Shown here one piece after another: positions 53 through 40,187 of a stretch of 64,000 nucleotides of DNA (position 1 is the stretch's first letter; every line of letters starts with the position of its first letter). Origin of the DNA: Euglena gracilis. Taxonomy: Eukaryota. The position numbers and the translations under genes were made by a program. The notes below the pieces were generated by a model, which was given only the letters and a program-made list of their open reading frames with translations, was not told where the DNA came from and ran no database searches. The stretch lies in NCBI GenBank assembly GCA_039621445.1, contig CP154954.1, forward strand, positions 8,248,634-8,312,633. The letters are read 5' to 3'.

Positions 53-220
53 CCCGGCCAGCCTGGGACGGGTTCACCGCCAGTGGGCAGTTGTCGCAGG
101 CGTCTCCGACGCCGTCTGCGTCGGTGTCCTTCTGGGTTGGGTTGGCCACGGCGGGGCAATTGTCGCAGGCATCCCCCACCCCGTCGCCGTCGCTGTCCGG
201 GCCGCACGGCTTGCCGGGGG
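53..220 (-). CDS. Exon encoding thrombospondin type-3 (Ca-binding) repeats
   Basis: After cccag: [53 protein letters not shown], i.e. two [15 protein letters not shown] motifs. The donor is uncertain (GT at 52-51, or a nonconventional boundary near 68). Confidence 0.85.
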
Positions 221-39200: not shown

Positions 39201-40187
39201 GGCGTTCCTAACGCCGGGTTTTAGGACAGAACCGGCGTCCGAAAACCCGTGGGGGGGGACGCCGGTTCTGTCCTGAACCCGGCGTCTCAAACGCCGGTTT
39301 AAAAAAAAAACGCGACACAAAAAAACACAAACAAAATGCAAAAAAAAACCGCAAATTGCATGCAAAATCCTTTAGGAGCTCCCCCAGGCAGGCTTCTTTT
39401 TAAGACCCCCGGGGGGGGGGGGGAGGGGGGTCCCCCCACCCACCCAGGGTGGCGCGGGACCCCCCCCGGGGGGGACCCCCCAAAATCGGGCCCGTTAAAG
39501 GCAATTTTCAAAAATTTTCGGCGCTTCGCGCCGAAAAGGTATACCCAGCGCCTCTGGCCCGGACCCACCCCCCCACCCCCCCCTCCCCCCCGGGGGGGGT
39601 CTGCTGACTTAAAAAGAAGCCTGCCCCCAGGATGTACACTGTTCCAGTGGGGGGGGGTCGGATCGGGAGTGCCTTAGAGTGCCTGCCCAGGCAGCCCCCC
39701 CCCCCCCCGAGGTGGGGTCGGCACCCGACTGAAATACAGCCTGCTGCCGACGCAGCGCAGGATGGCCCTGTTCTGCACACGACAGGTCCAGGTCTCCTCC
39801 TGTCTGCACACCGCCGCCAACGTACCCGCCATTGATGTGCAGGTCACCGCCAGCCACATGAGCAACCGGAGAGGCAGCTGGAGCGAGGATGGACACAGCA
39901 CGGTACCAAGCGGCCCCGGCGGCGGCACAGGGCCCAGAGAGTGCACCACTGTACGGCGCCTGCTGGCTGCCAATGTTGGCCAGGGAAAAGACGGTGTATT
40001 GCCATGCACCAGGGGGGGCGTCCGCGCACAATTCACACTCTGCGAAGGAGAGAGACGCAAAAAAACAAACAAACTTTGAAGCAATTCAGGATTGTTTGGG
40101 TCGTTTGAAACACTGTCCTCCGCTTTGCAACTGCTCCACCCTGCCCCCCCACTGCCTGCTTTTCCAGGGGGAGTTTATGGTGAGGGA
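53..40187 (-). CDS. Multi-exon gene (about 42 exons, 5' and 3' ends unresolved) for a large modular surface/secreted protein: choice-of-anchor-A-like domain + 6 LNR repeats + Ala/Pro/Thr/Gln-rich stalk + TSP type-3 repeats
   Basis: Chain of GC-rich exons on the minus strand with compatible phases (almost all phase 1-1, polypyrimidine-CAG acceptors, G|GTGTG donors). Several junctions lack GT-AG and instead fit stem-forming nonconventional introns. Domain calls are from motif recognition, not a database search. Confidence 0.8.
535..930. repeat. (GT)n and (TACA)n microsatellites
   Basis: Direct reading. Confidence 0.95.
1130..10496 (-). CDS. Array of 13 paralogous symmetric (phase 1-1) Ala/Pro/Gln-rich stalk exons
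   Basis: Exons 10413-10496, 9581-9643, 8948-9028, 7493-7582, 6957-7046, 6208-6279, 5867-5938, 5096-5185, 4018-4083, 3337-3417, 2611-2694, 1529-1582, 1130-1234. All lengths are multiples of 3, all have AG/GT boundaries, and the consensus is [31 protein letters not shown]. Confidence 0.85.
3146..3336. repeat. (CA)n microsatellite abutting an exon donor; similar tracts at 4785-5095, 5705-5866, 5980-6207, 18750-18930, 32205-32270
   Basis: Direct reading. Confidence 0.95.
10963..11326. mobile_element. hAT-type MITE, family A
   Basis: Perfect 17-bp TIR CAGGCATTTGCTTAAGG/CCTTAAGCAAATGCCTG; perfect 8-bp TSD GTGGGGGT. Confidence 0.92.
12291..13223 (-). CDS. Two Ala/Pro/Thr/Ser-rich spacer exons (13113-13223 and 12291-12428)
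   Basis: [38 protein letters not shown] (111 nt) and [20 protein letters not shown]...STKQG (138 nt), both cag|...G|gt, phase 1-1. Confidence 0.8.
13520..13811. repeat. (TACA)n microsatellite
   Basis: Direct reading. Confidence 0.95.
14952..15056 (-). CDS. LNR repeat exon (copy 6, uninterrupted)
   Basis: 105 nt, [39 protein letters not shown] 6-Cys/DGGDC signature; AG/GT boundaries. Confidence 0.9.
15862..16383 (-). CDS. Spacer exon split in two (16354-16383 and 15862-15918) by a MITE-derived nonconventional intron
   Basis: The joined 87 nt read [30 protein letters not shown]. Outer boundaries are canonical (ccgcag| and G|gtgtgc); the inner junction has no in-frame GT/GC-AG option. Confidence 0.75.
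15919..16353 (-). other. Nonconventional intron formed by a hAT-type MITE plus one TSD copy
   Basis: Minus strand C|AAG CAGGCCTTTGCTTAAG...CTTTAAGCAGTGGGCTA CCAAC|A; CAG at +4..+6, CTA at -8..-6. Confidence 0.75.
15924..16350. mobile_element. hAT-type MITE, family A, inserted in an exon
   Basis: Internal sequence colinear with 10963-11326 and 44312-44723; imperfect TIR; perfect TSD CTTGTTGG (15916-15923 and 16351-16358). Confidence 0.88.
16524..16932. mobile_element. hAT-type MITE, family A (diverged)
   Basis: CAGGCTATTGC...CTTAAGCAATGGCCTG ends, family-A interior, near-TSD AACCCCA. Confidence 0.7.
17479..17683 (-). CDS. LNR repeat (copy 5) split into 17647-17683 and 17479-17546 by a 100-nt nonconventional intron
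   Basis: 37+68 = 105 nt, the same length as uninterrupted LNR exons; [35 protein letters not shown] with the intron inside the Trp codon TG|G. Confidence 0.88.
17547..17646 (-). other. Nonconventional intron (100 nt)
   Basis: AGT CAGGGAT...ATCCCTG GACAA; 7-bp terminal stem, CAG +4, CTG -8; removal restores the LNR. Confidence 0.85.
18393..20458 (-). CDS. Three spacer exons (20363-20458, 18990-19079, 18393-18473)
   Basis: [91 protein letters not shown]. Lengths 96/90/81 nt, phase 1-1. The donor of the middle exon (T|gtagtg) is weaker. Confidence 0.75.
20643..21488 (-). CDS. LNR repeat (copy 4) split into 21452-21488 and 20643-20710 by a 741-nt nonconventional intron
   Basis: 37+68 = 105 nt; [36 protein letters not shown]; same insertion point as copy 5. 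Confidence 0.88.
20711..21451 (-). other. Nonconventional intron (741 nt)
   Basis: GAT CAGGG...CCCTG GATTG; CAG +4, CTG -8; removal restores the LNR; the boundary can slide within the TGGAT repeat. Confidence 0.85.
20746..21014. mobile_element. hAT-type MITE, family D, inside the 741-nt nonconventional intron
   Basis: TIR CAGGCTTGTGCT/AGCACAAGCCTG; TSD TTGCCCAC/TTGCCCAT; related copy near 31704-31933. Confidence 0.85.
21605..23704 (-). CDS. Spacer exons 23592-23704 (or 23592-23675), 22118-22384, 21911-21986 and tentative micro-exon 21605-21633
   Basis: 22118-22384 (267 nt) encodes [26 protein letters not shown]...(TTPAQP)n...AQEG with canonical ends. The other exons have boundary ambiguities described in findings. 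Confidence 0.65.
23312..23551. mobile_element. hAT-type MITE, family C
   Basis: Same TIR as 26981-27219; TSD TACCCCCA/TACCTCCA (7/8). Confidence 0.85.
24601..24705 (-). CDS. LNR repeat exon (copy 3, uninterrupted)
   Basis: 105 nt, [40 protein letters not shown]. Confidence 0.9.
26618..26960. mobile_element. hAT-type MITE, family E
   Basis: TIR CA(T/G)ACAATTTTTTA; perfect TSD ATCCAGAC. Confidence 0.85.
26981..27219. mobile_element. hAT-type MITE, family C
   Basis: TIR CAGGGGTTTTTTTA/TAAAAAAACCCCTG; perfect TSD ACCCCACC. Confidence 0.9.
27275..27358 (-). CDS. Ala/Pro/Thr-rich spacer exon
   Basis: 84 nt, [29 protein letters not shown], cacag| and G|gtacgt. Confidence 0.75.
29773..29877 (-). 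CDS. LNR repeat exon (copy 2, uninterrupted)
   Basis: 105 nt, [40 protein letters not shown]. Confidence 0.9.
30327..30437 (-). CDS. Ala/Pro/Thr-rich spacer exon
   Basis: 111 nt, [37 protein letters not shown], cacag| and G|gtccgc. Confidence 0.75.
30893..31030. repeat. (GTGGGT)n hexamer repeat
   Basis: Direct reading. Confidence 0.9.
32271..32375 (-). CDS. LNR repeat exon (copy 1, uninterrupted)
   Basis: 105 nt, [40 protein letters not shown]. Confidence 0.9.
33395..33490 (-). CDS. Pro/Thr-rich spacer exon
   Basis: 96 nt, [32 protein letters not shown], ctcag| and G|gtgtgt. Confidence 0.78.
34758..40039 (-). CDS. Five exons encoding a choice-of-anchor-A-like (ice-binding-like/adhesin beta-helix) domain: 39774-40039, ~38135-38285, 37119-37369, 35636-35751, 34758-34906
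   Basis: Motifs in the order expected for the family: WQYTVFS...[22 protein letters not shown]...[20 protein letters not shown]...SVVINMMG...[13 protein letters not shown]...[31 protein letters not shown]. Recognised by eye. Confidence 0.7.
34907..35635 (-). other. Nonconventional intron (729 nt), CAC/GTG variant
   Basis: AC|ACC CACCACAGTGGGAA...TTCCCGCTGGGGTG CCCCC|G; 14-bp stem with one mismatch and one G-U pair; gives HQVTVLAP in frame. Confidence 0.75.
35366..35594. mobile_element. hAT-type MITE, family B
   Basis: Near-identical to 39389-39623; perfect TSD GGCTGGCT. Confidence 0.9.
38337..39303. mobile_element. Helitron2/Helentron-like non-autonomous element (asymmetric inverted repeats + long terminal hairpin)
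   Basis: Hairpin of about 120 nt (38350-38470) followed by an IR pair 38472-38522/39255-39303; inverted near-copy at 47291-48260. Confidence 0.65.
39389..39623. mobile_element. hAT-type MITE, family B
   Basis: Perfect 16-bp TIR CAGGCTTCTTTTTAAG; perfect TSD CCCCCAGG. Confidence 0.92.
40140..40187 (-). CDS. Tentative upstream exon of the modular gene
   Basis: 48 nt, tttacag|..[17 protein letters not shown]|gtggag, phase 1-1 and compatible with the next exon; no homology support. Confidence 0.35.

What the first reader, a model, noticed from the sequence alone, without database searches (positions are those of the whole stretch)
53..40039. Unusual mosaic surface protein: choice-of-anchor-A-like head + LNR repeats + mucin-like stalk + TSP3 repeats
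Seen: the spliced translation gives a Gly/Val-rich beta-helix-like domain with [16 protein letters not shown] and VLAPKA.V....G...GQLVA motifs, then six LNRs separated by Ala/Pro/Thr/Gln spacers, about 15 stalk exons, and [15 protein letters not shown] repeats. Established: choice-of-anchor A domains are mainly bacterial surface/adhesin domains; LNR and TSP3 are Ca-binding extracellular modules. Inference: an adhesin-like protein with its head on a long, probably glycosylated stalk (adhesion, gliding, prey capture or mucilage), possibly with a horizontally acquired head. I do not recognise this combination from any named protein.
Basis: partly seen in the sequence, partly recalled or inferred. 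Interest (0 to 1): 0.75.

Follow-up and report, generated by a model that had tools for sequence, protein, structure and literature searches.

The report
Euglenid adhesin-like gene, bacterial-type head
A 40-kb gene of about 37 exons, probably from Euglena, encodes a secreted-type protein with a bacterial-style beta-helix "sticky" head, six calcium-binding Notch-type beads, a long alanine/proline spacer and thrombospondin repeats; such heads are already known in diatom and amoeba adhesion proteins, so this is a new variant rather than a new kind.

Summary
On the minus strand, 40039 down to 53, I can chain 37 exons (3,901 nt) into a 1,300-aa open frame.

- **Head:** five exons form a complete choice-of-anchor A (CAA, Pfam pAdhesive_15) domain.
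- **LNRs:** six modules, each on its own phase 1-1 exon; two are split by an extra intron.
- **Spacers and stalk:** nine Ala/Pro/Thr/Gln spacer exons and 15 near-identical Ala/Pro/Gln stalk exons (428 aa).
- **3' edge:** one exon with two TSP3 repeats; its donor points out of the window.

Three introns fit the published Euglena nonconventional splicing code exactly where homology places the join. This is therefore a euglenid nuclear gene, not contamination. Repeated exons are conserved islands with more synonymous than non-synonymous codon differences, so the gene has been under coding selection.

Not shown: expression, a single transcript, the start codon or signal peptide, and the 3' end. 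The stalk has only 14% Ser+Thr, so "mucin-like" is not met.

CAA heads on long low-complexity regions are already described in diatom Trailins and Acanthamoeba Jonah lectins. My searches found no protein combining CAA with LNR or TSP3. Verdict: a real, ordinary-in-kind adhesin or matrix gene with a new architecture in a new lineage, of moderate interest.

The parts
39774..40039 (-). Head exon H1 (CAA domain, N-terminal turns). It begins at a strong acceptor in phase 1 and has no in-frame ATG.
   Evidence: Local CAA profile E 1.6e-16; tblastn to P0007 aa 75-171; boundaries.
38142..38285 (-). Head exon H2.
   Evidence: Collinear weak tblastn hit to P0007 aa 172-212. The 5' join fits the nonconventional code and scores best. 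The 3' end is uncertain: GC-AG 38142|37355 (98.1 bits) against nonconventional code 38157|37340 (88.2 bits).
37119..37355 (-). Head exon H3 (contains VVINM).
   Evidence: Pfam PF20597 23.4 bits; phmmer hits; local profile E 9e-26; GT-AG join to H4.
35635..35751 (-). Head exon H4 (contains [11 protein letters not shown]). The 3' boundary is unresolved.
   Evidence: Local profile E 3.6e-10; the profile prefers a join at 35637-35635|34907-34905, with no AG and no nonconventional-code signature.
34758..34905 (-). Head exon H5 (VLAPKA...GQLVA, then a CxxC tail). Its donor is G|GTGTGT in phase 1.
   Evidence: Local profile E 1.3e-10; tblastn to P0007 aa 339-379.
33395..33490 (-). Spacer exon S1 (Ala/Pro/Thr-rich).
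   Evidence: Phase 1-1 GT-AG exon. An alternative acceptor lies at 33523.
32271..32375 (-). LNR1 exon (105 nt).
   Evidence: PF00066 E 3.6e-10; best PDB match is the GNPTAB LNR, E 2.5e-13.
30327..30437 (-). Spacer exon S2.
29773..29877 (-). LNR2 exon.
   Evidence: PF00066 E 1.8e-9.
27275..27358 (-). Spacer exon S3.
24601..24705 (-). LNR3 exon.
   Evidence: PF00066 E 2.3e-9.
23592..23675 (-). Spacer exon S4.
22118..22384 (-). Long spacer exon S5 (267 nt, Ala/Thr/Pro/Gln).
21452..21488 (-). LNR4, first half.
   Evidence: a nonconventional-code intron (GATCAG...CTGGATTG|G, 741 nt) restores ...PFSWIGNS...
20643..20710 (-). LNR4, second half.
   Evidence: PF00066 E 6.5e-10.
20363..20458 (-). Spacer exon S6.
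18990..19079 (-). Spacer exon S7.
18393..18473 (-). Spacer exon S8, the only clearly Ser/Thr-rich one.
17647..17683 (-). LNR5, first half.
   Evidence: a nonconventional-code intron (AGTCAG...CTGGACAA|G, 100 nt) at the same codon as in LNR4.
17479..17546 (-). LNR5, second half.
   Evidence: PF00066 E 2.2e-8.
14952..15056 (-). LNR6 exon.
   Evidence: PF00066 E 1.7e-8.
13113..13223 (-). Stalk exon 1.
12291..12428 (-). Stalk exon 2.
10413..10496 (-). Stalk exon 3.
9581..9643 (-). Stalk exon 4.
8948..9028 (-). Stalk exon 5.
7493..7582 (-). Stalk exon 6.
6957..7046 (-). Stalk exon 7.
6208..6279 (-). Stalk exon 8.
5867..5938 (-). Stalk exon 9.
5096..5185 (-). Stalk exon 10.
4018..4083 (-). Stalk exon 11.
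3337..3417 (-). Stalk exon 12.
2611..2694 (-). Stalk exon 13.
1529..1582 (-). Stalk exon 14.
1130..1234 (-). Stalk exon 15.
53..220 (-). TSP3 exon with two type-3 repeats. A donor follows at 52, so the gene continues beyond the window start.
   Evidence: PF02412 41 bits; COMP E 5.5e-42 and TSP-2 E 7.6e-40.

Best explanation
This is a real nuclear gene of a euglenid (Euglena-type). It encodes a large secreted or surface-exposed modular protein whose working end is a choice-of-anchor A (CAA, pAdhesive_15) beta-helix.

Shown:
- At least 37 exons on one strand give a 1,300-aa open frame.
- The order is CAA head, then six single LNR modules separated by Ala/Pro/Thr/Gln linkers, then a 428-aa Ala/Pro/Gln spacer built from 15 duplicated phase 1-1 exons, then TSP3 repeats.
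- The gene is spliced by both GT-AG and Euglena nonconventional introns.
- The repeated exons have evolved under coding constraint.

Inferred:
- The protein enters the secretory pathway. All recognisable modules are disulfide-rich, Ca-binding extracellular types.
- The flat face of the ice-binding-protein-like beta-helix binds an ordered surface or polysaccharide, as shown for Acanthamoeba Jonah lectins (cellulose) and proposed for diatom Trailins (substratum).
- The LNR and TSP3 modules bind Ca2+ and stiffen or cross-link the molecule.
- The Ala/Pro spacer holds the head far from whatever the unseen C-terminal part is attached to.
- The most likely role is adhesion or extracellular matrix (mucilage, palmella or cyst envelope) in the euglenid.
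- The head was most likely acquired from bacteria long ago, because it now carries four introns.
For: Modules:
- PF00066 in 6 of 6 LNR pieces and PF02412 in the 3' piece.
- The LNR exon is closest to the GNPTAB, Notch3 and pappalysin LNRs. The TSP3 exon is closest to COMP and TSP-2.

Head:
- A single exon finds 20 relatives, and 19 of the 21 listed proteins pass PF20597.
- Five collinear pieces match P0007 aa 75-379.
- The assembled head scores 275.6 bits and is 40% identical over 332 aligned positions to P0007.
- The AlphaFold model of P0007 (pLDDT above 90 over about aa 85-370) matches ice-binding-protein beta-helices (6a8k TMt 0.51, 3wp9 0.52), Tapirin cellulose adhesins and ComZ.

Gene integrity:
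- 37 exons, no stops, and every exon from H5 to the TSP3 exon in phase 1.
- Three joins predicted by homology meet the code 5'-N3CDG...CH'GN5-6|R (code from PMC12501133, abstract and passages). Only 184 of 197,540 random site pairs meet it.
- The six LNR copies keep all six Cys and DGGDC. Over 15 pairs there are 139 synonymous against 74 non-synonymous codon differences.
- Exons are 75-96% identical while 150-nt flanks are 29-48%. Conservation starts and stops at the splice sites.

Precedent for function:
- Trailins: CAA plus Pro/Thr/Ser-rich regions, found in adhesive trails, horizontal transfer from bacteria (10.1101/2023.03.06.531300, passages).
- Jonah lectins: CAA, bind cellulose, cyst wall (PMC6541295, passages).

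Bacterial affinity:
- 9 of 21 hits carry a PEP-CTERM match at E<=0.01, 5 of them above the cut-off.
- Named hits are Phycisphaerae and Polarisedimenticolaceae MAG proteins.
- In the tree, the window head plus P0007 (support 100/99) sit inside such sequences.
Against: - No start codon or signal peptide was found. H1 has no in-frame ATG, a heuristic scan gave 4 weak candidates, and 0 of 106 upstream minus-strand frames have a Pfam hit.
- The 3' end, and so any anchor, lies outside the window.
- Two head junctions are not settled. H2/H3 has two competing joins. H4/H5 has neither an AG nor the nonconventional-code signature.
- My exon search downstream of the head looked only for phase 1-1 GT-AG exons. 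Uniform phase is therefore partly built in, and further exons may be missed.
- The only copy of the head exon in the 1.8-billion-protein library is an unspliced ORF (P0001).
- The curated Pfam and NCBIfam models do not reach their cut-offs on any single exon.
- The fold test was done on a 40%-identical homolog, not on the window's protein.
- The tree is unrooted, has 20 rows, and most rows carry no taxon, so transfer and its direction are not proven.
- No binding activity is known for this subtype.
Confidence: 0.6

Rival explanations
1. There are two or more transcription units, or alternative isoforms. The CAA head (H1-H5) is one product that ends by read-through after H5. The LNR, stalk and TSP3 exons belong to another gene or isoform.
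For: - No RNA evidence joins them.
- The frame stays open for about 50 codons past the H5 donor before a stop (piece 34926-34594), so a terminal-exon reading is possible.
- The closest homolog P0007 is only 415 aa and ends soon after the head.
- 1.27 kb separates H5 from the next exon.
Against: - H5 ends at a G|GTGTGT donor of exactly the type and phase (1) used by the downstream exons. 23 of 37 donors start GTGTG.
- No start-type exon is visible for a second gene.
- The strand is the same, there is no intervening gene, and there is no stop in the chained frame.
Confidence: 0.15
2. This is a silent or decaying gene (pseudogene). The exon chain is a relic that is no longer expressed.
For: - No start codon was found.
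- One head junction (H4/H5) lacks any recognised splice signal.
- Only an unspliced ORF of the head exon is present in the large protein library.
Against: - There are no stops or frameshifts in 3.9 kb of chained exons.
- Synonymous differences outnumber non-synonymous ones among LNR copies (139 against 74), and the flanks have diverged to background.
- The split Trp codon is restored exactly by nonconventional-code introns in two LNRs.
- About 39% of Euglena agilis nonconventional introns lack the signature anyway (PMC12501133 abstract: the signature is present in 61.2%).
Confidence: 0.1
3. The head is an ice-binding or antifreeze domain rather than an adhesive or lectin domain.
For: The best structural matches of the proxy model are ice-binding proteins.
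Against: - Sequence profiles give PF20597, not PF11999 Ice_binding, for the window pieces and for P0007.
- The Trailin paper reports that a diatom CAA domain lacks ice-binding motifs and ordered surface carbons (10.1101/2023.03.06.531300, passage in the 3D-structure section).
- The fusion to LNR, TSP3 and a long spacer is matrix-like.
Confidence: 0.05

Closest known systems
Diatom Trailins (Craspedostauros australis CaTrailin1-4; bioRxiv 10.1101/2023.03.06.531300, abstract and passages read)
   Same: Eukaryotic secreted proteins that combine a CAA/pAdhesive_15 domain with very long low-complexity Pro-rich regions. The CAA domain has an ice-binding-protein-like fold and is inferred to come from bacteria by horizontal transfer. 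There is no bacterial sorting anchor.
   Different: Trailins have Pro/Thr/Ser-rich regions, whereas here the spacer is Ala/Pro/Gln with 14% Ser+Thr. No LNR or TSP3 modules are reported for Trailins. The lineage differs: that paper found CAA largely restricted to bacteria, rotifers and diatoms.
Acanthamoeba castellanii Jonah lectins (PMC6541295, abstract and passages read)
   Same: A CAA domain or domains behind a signal peptide, with low-complexity spacers. Cellulose binding and cyst-wall localisation were shown experimentally, and a bacterial origin was proposed.
   Different: [quoted passage not shown] Sequence relation to this head was not tested.
Bacterial choice-of-anchor A proteins with PEP-CTERM (for example P0003, Phycisphaerae MAG, MCK5113495.1)
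   Same: They are the nearest relatives by sequence: single-exon E down to 7.4e-13, the same domain over its whole length, and the same conserved motifs.
   Different: They are single-domain proteins of about 340-380 aa with a signal peptide and a PEP-CTERM anchor, and no introns. Here there are four introns, two or more of them not GT-AG, and eukaryotic matrix modules are attached.
P0007 (unnamed 415-aa protein from an ENA assembly)
   Same: Sister of the window head (support 100/99; 40% identity over 332 aligned positions). It shares the CxxC motifs that flank the domain on both sides.
   Different: Its head is an uninterrupted ORF, it has a different Cys-rich N-terminal part, and it has no LNR or TSP3. 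Its organism is unknown, and no close relative was found in 185,579 prokaryote species genomes by pattern scan.
Thrombospondin/COMP type-3 repeats, and the LNR modules of GlcNAc-1-phosphotransferase, Notch and pappalysin
   Same: Canonical Ca-binding, disulfide-bonded modules. Each sits on its own exon in phase 1-1, the arrangement typical of shuffled extracellular modules (this last point is recalled knowledge).
   Different: Here the LNRs are single beads separated by 27-89-aa linkers, not the tight clusters of two or three. No TSP C-terminal domain, EGF or Stealth domain is seen in the window.

Membership tests
Choice-of-anchor A / pAdhesive_15 (PF20597, TIGR04215) | Profile match over the whole domain of about 250 positions. 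| tested here: met
   The curated models could only be run on single exons and stay just under their cut-offs (23.4 against 23.8; 24.0 against 29). The assembled head scores 275.6 bits over positions 36-318 of 353 of a local profile. That profile was built from 19 proteins that each pass PF20597.
Choice-of-anchor A / pAdhesive_15 | Ice-binding-protein-like right-handed beta-helix with a flanking helix. | tested here: inconclusive
   Tested only by proxy. The model of P0007, 40% identical to the head, is confident and matches ice-binding proteins, Tapirins and ComZ. A spliced window protein could not be handed to the fold tool.
Choice-of-anchor A proteins (bacterial sense) | A C-terminal sorting anchor (LPXTG, PEP-CTERM or type IX secretion). 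| not testable with these tools
   The 3' end lies beyond the window start. Eukaryotic CAA proteins are reported to lack such anchors (10.1101/2023.03.06.531300, passage).
LNR / Notch domain (PF00066) | Six Cys and the Ca-binding D/N pattern ending in DGGDC; score above the gathering cut-off. | tested here: met
   6 of 6 copies. Best solved relative is the GNPTAB LNR, E 2.5e-13.
Thrombospondin type-3 repeat (PF02412) | The DxDxDGxxDxxDNCP Ca-binding repeat; score above the cut-off. | tested here: met
   41 bits against 25, two stretches. COMP E 5.5e-42.
Thrombospondin family proper | TSP C-terminal lectin-like domain after the type-3 repeats. | not testable with these tools
   The sequence downstream of the TSP3 exon is outside the window.
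Mucin-like (PTS) domain | A high Ser/Thr content with Pro. The threshold of roughly a quarter or more of residues is recalled, not taken from a call. | tested here: not met
   Stalk: Ser+Thr 14.3%, Ala 38.3%, Pro 18.2%, Gln 13.6%. Only spacer exon S8 is Ser/Thr-rich.
Diatom Trailins | A CAA domain of diatom type 1 or type 2, and presence in adhesive trails. | not tested
Localisation is experimental.
Euglenid nonconventional introns | 5'-N3CDG ... CH'GN5-6|R signature (PMC12501133). | tested here: met
   Met at H1/H2 and inside LNR4 and LNR5, at the joins predicted by homology. Chance is 184 of 197,540 random pairs. Not met at H4/H5.

The most novel reading that the evidence does not exclude
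A euglenid has assembled a giant calcium-dependent adhesive or matrix protein by tandem duplication of phase-1 module exons. It combines a bacterium-derived CAA beta-helix head with modules otherwise typical of animal extracellular matrix (LNR, TSP3). On this reading, the gene would be the first molecular handle on euglenid mucilage, substrate adhesion or the cyst envelope. It would also be an independent, third or later domestication of the bacterial CAA adhesive fold by a eukaryote. The nonconventional introns sitting inside two LNR modules would date intron gain relative to module duplication.
Probability: 0.3. Interest if true: 0.6.

Novelty: new variant of a known kind. Interest (0 to 1): 0.45.

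Why it matters
If the gene is expressed as one protein, it extends the set of eukaryotes that have recruited the bacterial CAA adhesive fold to the euglenids. So far that set covers diatoms, Acanthamoeba, rotifers, some fungi and a bacterivorous stramenopile. It also shows the fold joined to Ca-binding LNR and TSP3 modules, a combination I could not find described.

It gives a concrete candidate for the almost unknown protein chemistry of Euglena's extracellular material.

It is also a clean natural example of Euglena's two splicing systems working within one gene. Three nonconventional introns can be placed to the base by homology alone, and the module-per-exon structure in uniform phase documents growth by exon duplication outside animals.

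It does not reveal a new kind of system.

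Tried and rejected
- **RNA evidence.** No RNA holder of the stretch is listed. I laid four RNA-seq runs with the same species label on 22000-41999 (about 5-6% of each run read). Depth on exon-bearing bins was about 0-0.4. All substantial depth sat on G/C-run interspersed repeats. No splice joints of the gene appeared, so there is no verdict on expression or on the single-transcript question.
- **Whole genome.** None is held.
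- **The search for homologous proteins.** The head exon with longer lengths found none. P0007 found only itself. The family alignment with longer lengths found one unrelated architecture, P0025. The tool itself warns that such blanks are weak evidence.
- **ESM Atlas with P0007.** Only bacterial PF20597 clusters, best score 0.89, below the 0.9 lead threshold.
- **The search for related loci.** Single-protein scans with P0007 and P0018 found nothing. I therefore have no labelled donor lineage.
- **5' exon.** A heuristic signal-peptide scan gave 4 weak candidates, none credible. A Pfam scan of 106 upstream minus-strand frames gave 0 hits.
- **Junction choices.** I first assumed the GT-AG reading of H1/H2 (…DLDLS|VDG…). 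I rejected it in favour of the nonconventional-code join, which scores higher (75.3 against at most 71.1) and aligns to P0007 without a gap. My hand-guessed join NPA|PDF at H2/H3 has no signal and was replaced by the two scored candidates.
- **Earlier scan notes.** Nothing on this window or on related sequences or words.
- **Literature.** Searches for a euglenid CAA, LNR or TSP3 protein found none. One Euglena paper mentions ice-binding proteins only in general terms.

Full report
**1. What is there**

The window is eukaryotic, intron-rich DNA.
- VVINM at 37145, VLINM at 35697, VLAPKA at 34905.
- Six DGGDC endings of LNR modules between 32286 and 14967.
- Two [15 protein letters not shown] repeats at 197 and 128.

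Pfam on the raw reading-frame pieces gives the LNR domain PF00066 in 6 of 6 pieces (34.8-40.6 bits, cut-off 21.2). It gives TSP_3 PF02412 in the 3' piece (41 bits, cut-off 25). Of the five head pieces, two hit pAdhesive_15 PF20597 just under its cut-off (23.4 and 17.6 bits against 23.8) and three gave nothing relevant. NCBIfam TIGR04215, choice-of-anchor A, gave 24.0 and 11.6 bits against a cut-off of 29. On curated models alone, the head would be a near miss.

**2. The head is a complete choice-of-anchor A domain split over five exons**

I ran one 84-aa exon (37119-37370) by phmmer against 1.84 billion representatives and it found 21 proteins. One is its own unspliced ORF (P0001). The other 20 have E 7.4e-13 to 8.4e-4. 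Of the 21, 19 pass PF20597. The exceptions are P0001 at 23.6 bits and P0019 with no family. Nine carry a PEP-CTERM match at E<=0.01, five of them above the cut-off. The few named ones are bacterial MAG proteins annotated choice-of-anchor A.

A local profile built from those 19 proteins hits four minus-strand pieces at E 9.2e-26, 1.6e-16, 1.3e-10 and 3.6e-10. The fifth piece (H2) is not significant on its own (E 7.5). By tblastn, however, five collinear blocks match P0007 aa 75-171, 172-212, 226-307, 295-338 and 339-379. Assembled inside a script, the head scores 275.6 bits over profile positions 36-318 of 353 and is 40% identical to P0007 over 332 aligned positions.

A spliced protein cannot be handed to the fold tools, so I folded P0007 with an 18-row alignment. 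The mean pLDDT is 76, with above 90 across about aa 85-370. Foldseek against the PDB returns ice-binding-protein beta-helices first (5uyt, 6a8k with TMt 0.51, 3wp9 with 0.52), then the Tapirin cellulose adhesins (4wa0, 6n2b) and ComZ. The literature reports the same neighbours for CAA domains (10.1101/2023.03.06.531300, passages).

**3. Splicing identifies the host as a euglenid**

Earlier notes of this scan call the genome Euglena (unchecked leads). I tested one consequence of that. The published Euglena nonconventional-intron signature is 5'-N3CDG...CH'GN5-6|R (PMC12501133, abstract and passages).

- Among all frame-compatible joins of H1 to H2, the best-scoring one (75.3 bits against at most 71.1 for GT-AG alternatives) is a nonconventional-code join, 39774|38285. 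It also abuts the two P0007 alignment blocks without a gap (aa 171|172) and keeps a Cys.
- LNR4 and LNR5 are each interrupted at the same Trp codon by an intron (741 and 100 nt). Both introns meet the code, and their removal restores ...PFSWIGNS....
- All three introns also share an extended CAGGG...CCCTG pairing.
- Only 184 of 197,540 random site pairs in this region meet the code.

For the other head junctions:
- H3/H4 is a plain GT-AG intron.
- H2/H3 has two candidates: GC-AG 38142|37355 at 98.1 bits, and nonconventional code 38157|37340 at 88.2 bits.
- H4/H5 has no AG acceptor and no code signature. The profile prefers ...[16 protein letters not shown].... The paper states that the signature is present in 61.2% of nonconventional introns, so this is not disqualifying, but it is unresolved.

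**4. The rest of the chain**

Downstream of H5, whose donor is G|GTGTGT in phase 1, every module can be placed on a GT-AG exon in phase 1-1:
- Four LNR exons of 105 nt and two split LNRs.
- Nine Ala/Pro/Thr/Gln spacer exons (81-267 nt).
- 15 stalk exons (54-138 nt). Fourteen begin with Glu or Val from the split codon, stalk exon 1 with Gly, and twelve of the 15 end ...QQ.
- One 168-nt exon with two TSP3 repeats, whose donor at 52 points out of the window.

In total there are 37 exons, 3,901 nt and 1,300 codons with no stop. Introns are 100-2,569 nt and sum to 36,087 nt. Twenty-three of 37 donors start GTGTG, often running into (GT)n microsatellites.

A caveat applies. I searched only for phase 1-1 GT-AG exons in this part, so uniform phase is partly built in, and exons of other kinds could be missed.

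**5. Is it under selection?**

- The six LNR copies keep all six Cys and DGGDC. Over the 15 pairs, 139 codon differences are synonymous and 74 are not (the pairs are not independent).
- LNR exons are 75-96% identical, against 29-48% for 150-nt flanks. Stalk exons are 75-90%, against 21-57%.
- Alignments with 40-nt flanks show conservation starting a few bases before the acceptor AG and ending at GGTGTG.

This argues against a long-dead pseudogene and against simple homogenisation of whole repeat units.

**6. What is missing**

- **5' end.** H1 starts at a strong acceptor and has no in-frame ATG. No credible signal-peptide exon and no recognisable domain (0 of 106 frames) was found between 40.1 and 55.4 kb, where an IFT52 exon on the other strand marks the next gene.
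- **3' end.** It is off the window.
- **Expression.** No listed holder of the stretch is an RNA run. The four RNA-seq runs of the same species label gave essentially no depth on exons at the 5-6% sampled. This gives no verdict either way.

**7. Composition**

The stalk is 428 aa: Ala 38.3%, Pro 18.2%, Gln 13.6% and Ser+Thr 14.3%. It has 39 Ala-Pro dipeptides. The whole model has no N-glycosylation sequon and 48 Cys. 'Mucin-like' is therefore not met. An extended Ala/Pro spacer, possibly hydroxylated or O-glycosylated at Ala-Pro, is my inference.

**8. Comparison with what is known**

CAA domains in eukaryotic extracellular proteins are established:
- **Diatom Trailins.** Four CAA proteins with Pro/Thr/Ser-rich regions in adhesive trails, with horizontal transfer from bacteria and an ice-binding-protein-like fold. 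That paper found CAA 'largely restricted to bacteria, rotifers and diatoms'.
- **Acanthamoeba Jonah lectins.** They bind cellulose and sit in the cyst wall (PMC6541295).
- **A bacterivorous stramenopile.** It lists the domain among up-regulated adhesion domains (PMC7852580, one table row seen).

I found no paper on a euglenid CAA, LNR or TSP3 protein. I found no protein combining CAA with LNR or TSP3 (weak evidence).

In a 20-row tree, the window head and P0007 are sisters (100/99). They sit inside a 9-row group (88/94) whose basal member carries PEP-CTERM. The rows were the window head plus P0002-P0021 without P0019, with P0020 cut to its first 270 aa; P0001 and P0022-25 were left out. The tree is unrooted and mostly unlabelled, so a bacterial origin is likely but not proven. 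Four introns in the head show that any transfer is old.

**9. Verdict**

The best reading is a real euglenid gene for a secreted, Ca-binding, CAA-headed adhesin or matrix protein. I put confidence at 0.6 for the whole statement, and higher for 'real modular extracellular-type gene'. It is a new variant of a known kind, with interest 0.45.

Noticed in passing
window 55478-56062 (+): An exon of an IFT52 intraflagellar-transport gene lies on the opposite strand (GIFT domain E 4.4e-37, profile positions 33-125; best PDB relatives are IFT52 chains, E 1.2e-26). It bounds the region where the adhesin gene's missing 5' exons could lie.
   Followed up: partly
window 58438-63996: A satellite array with a 151-bp unit at 96-97% identity (up to 10 copies per block), arranged in a higher-order repeat of about 1,167 bp. 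It produces very long spurious open frames on both strands.
   Followed up: partly
window 23338-23357, 26113-26130, 39410-39430, 39564-39591 (and similar elements in many introns): An interspersed repeat with long G-runs and C-runs (it translates as ...PPPPGG.../...GGGGW...) carries nearly all RNA-seq depth in the laid 20 kb. It gives many 'opposite strands' and 'goes back' joints with poly-G or poly-C loose ends. It is a transcribed repeat family or a library artefact at homopolymers.
   Followed up: no
window, donors of the 37 model exons (e.g. 32270, 5095, 3336): 23 of 37 introns begin GTGTG, and several run straight into (GT)n or (GC/GT)n microsatellites of 24 to at least 60 nt. The splice donor is thus the first unit of a microsatellite. 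For background, 588 of 2,787 GT sites in the region are followed by GTG.
   Followed up: partly
window 21451-20711 and 17646-17547: The two nonconventional introns inside LNR4 and LNR5 sit at the same Trp codon and share their end sequences (…CAGGGATTTGTTG… / …CCCTGGA…), but they differ in length (741 against 100 nt). This suggests the intron was gained before the LNR4/LNR5 duplication and later expanded or shrank.
   Followed up: partly
window 660-1100 and 13330-13900: Long (TGTA/CATA-type) microsatellites that read as ...CMYVCMYV... on the minus strand, lying within introns of the gene.
   Followed up: no
protein P0025: An unnamed 1,869-aa NCBI protein on a 426-kb contig combines Dicty_CTDC (PF00526), pAdhesive_15 and DUF11 (PF01345). 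This is another long multi-domain CAA architecture, possibly eukaryotic.
   Followed up: no
protein P0007 aa 1-76: The sister homolog of the head has a Cys-rich N-terminal segment (a ...DAWCQSNC... motif) and a Thr run before the CAA domain. That part has a low-confidence fold and no Pfam family. No counterpart was found upstream in the window.
   Followed up: partly
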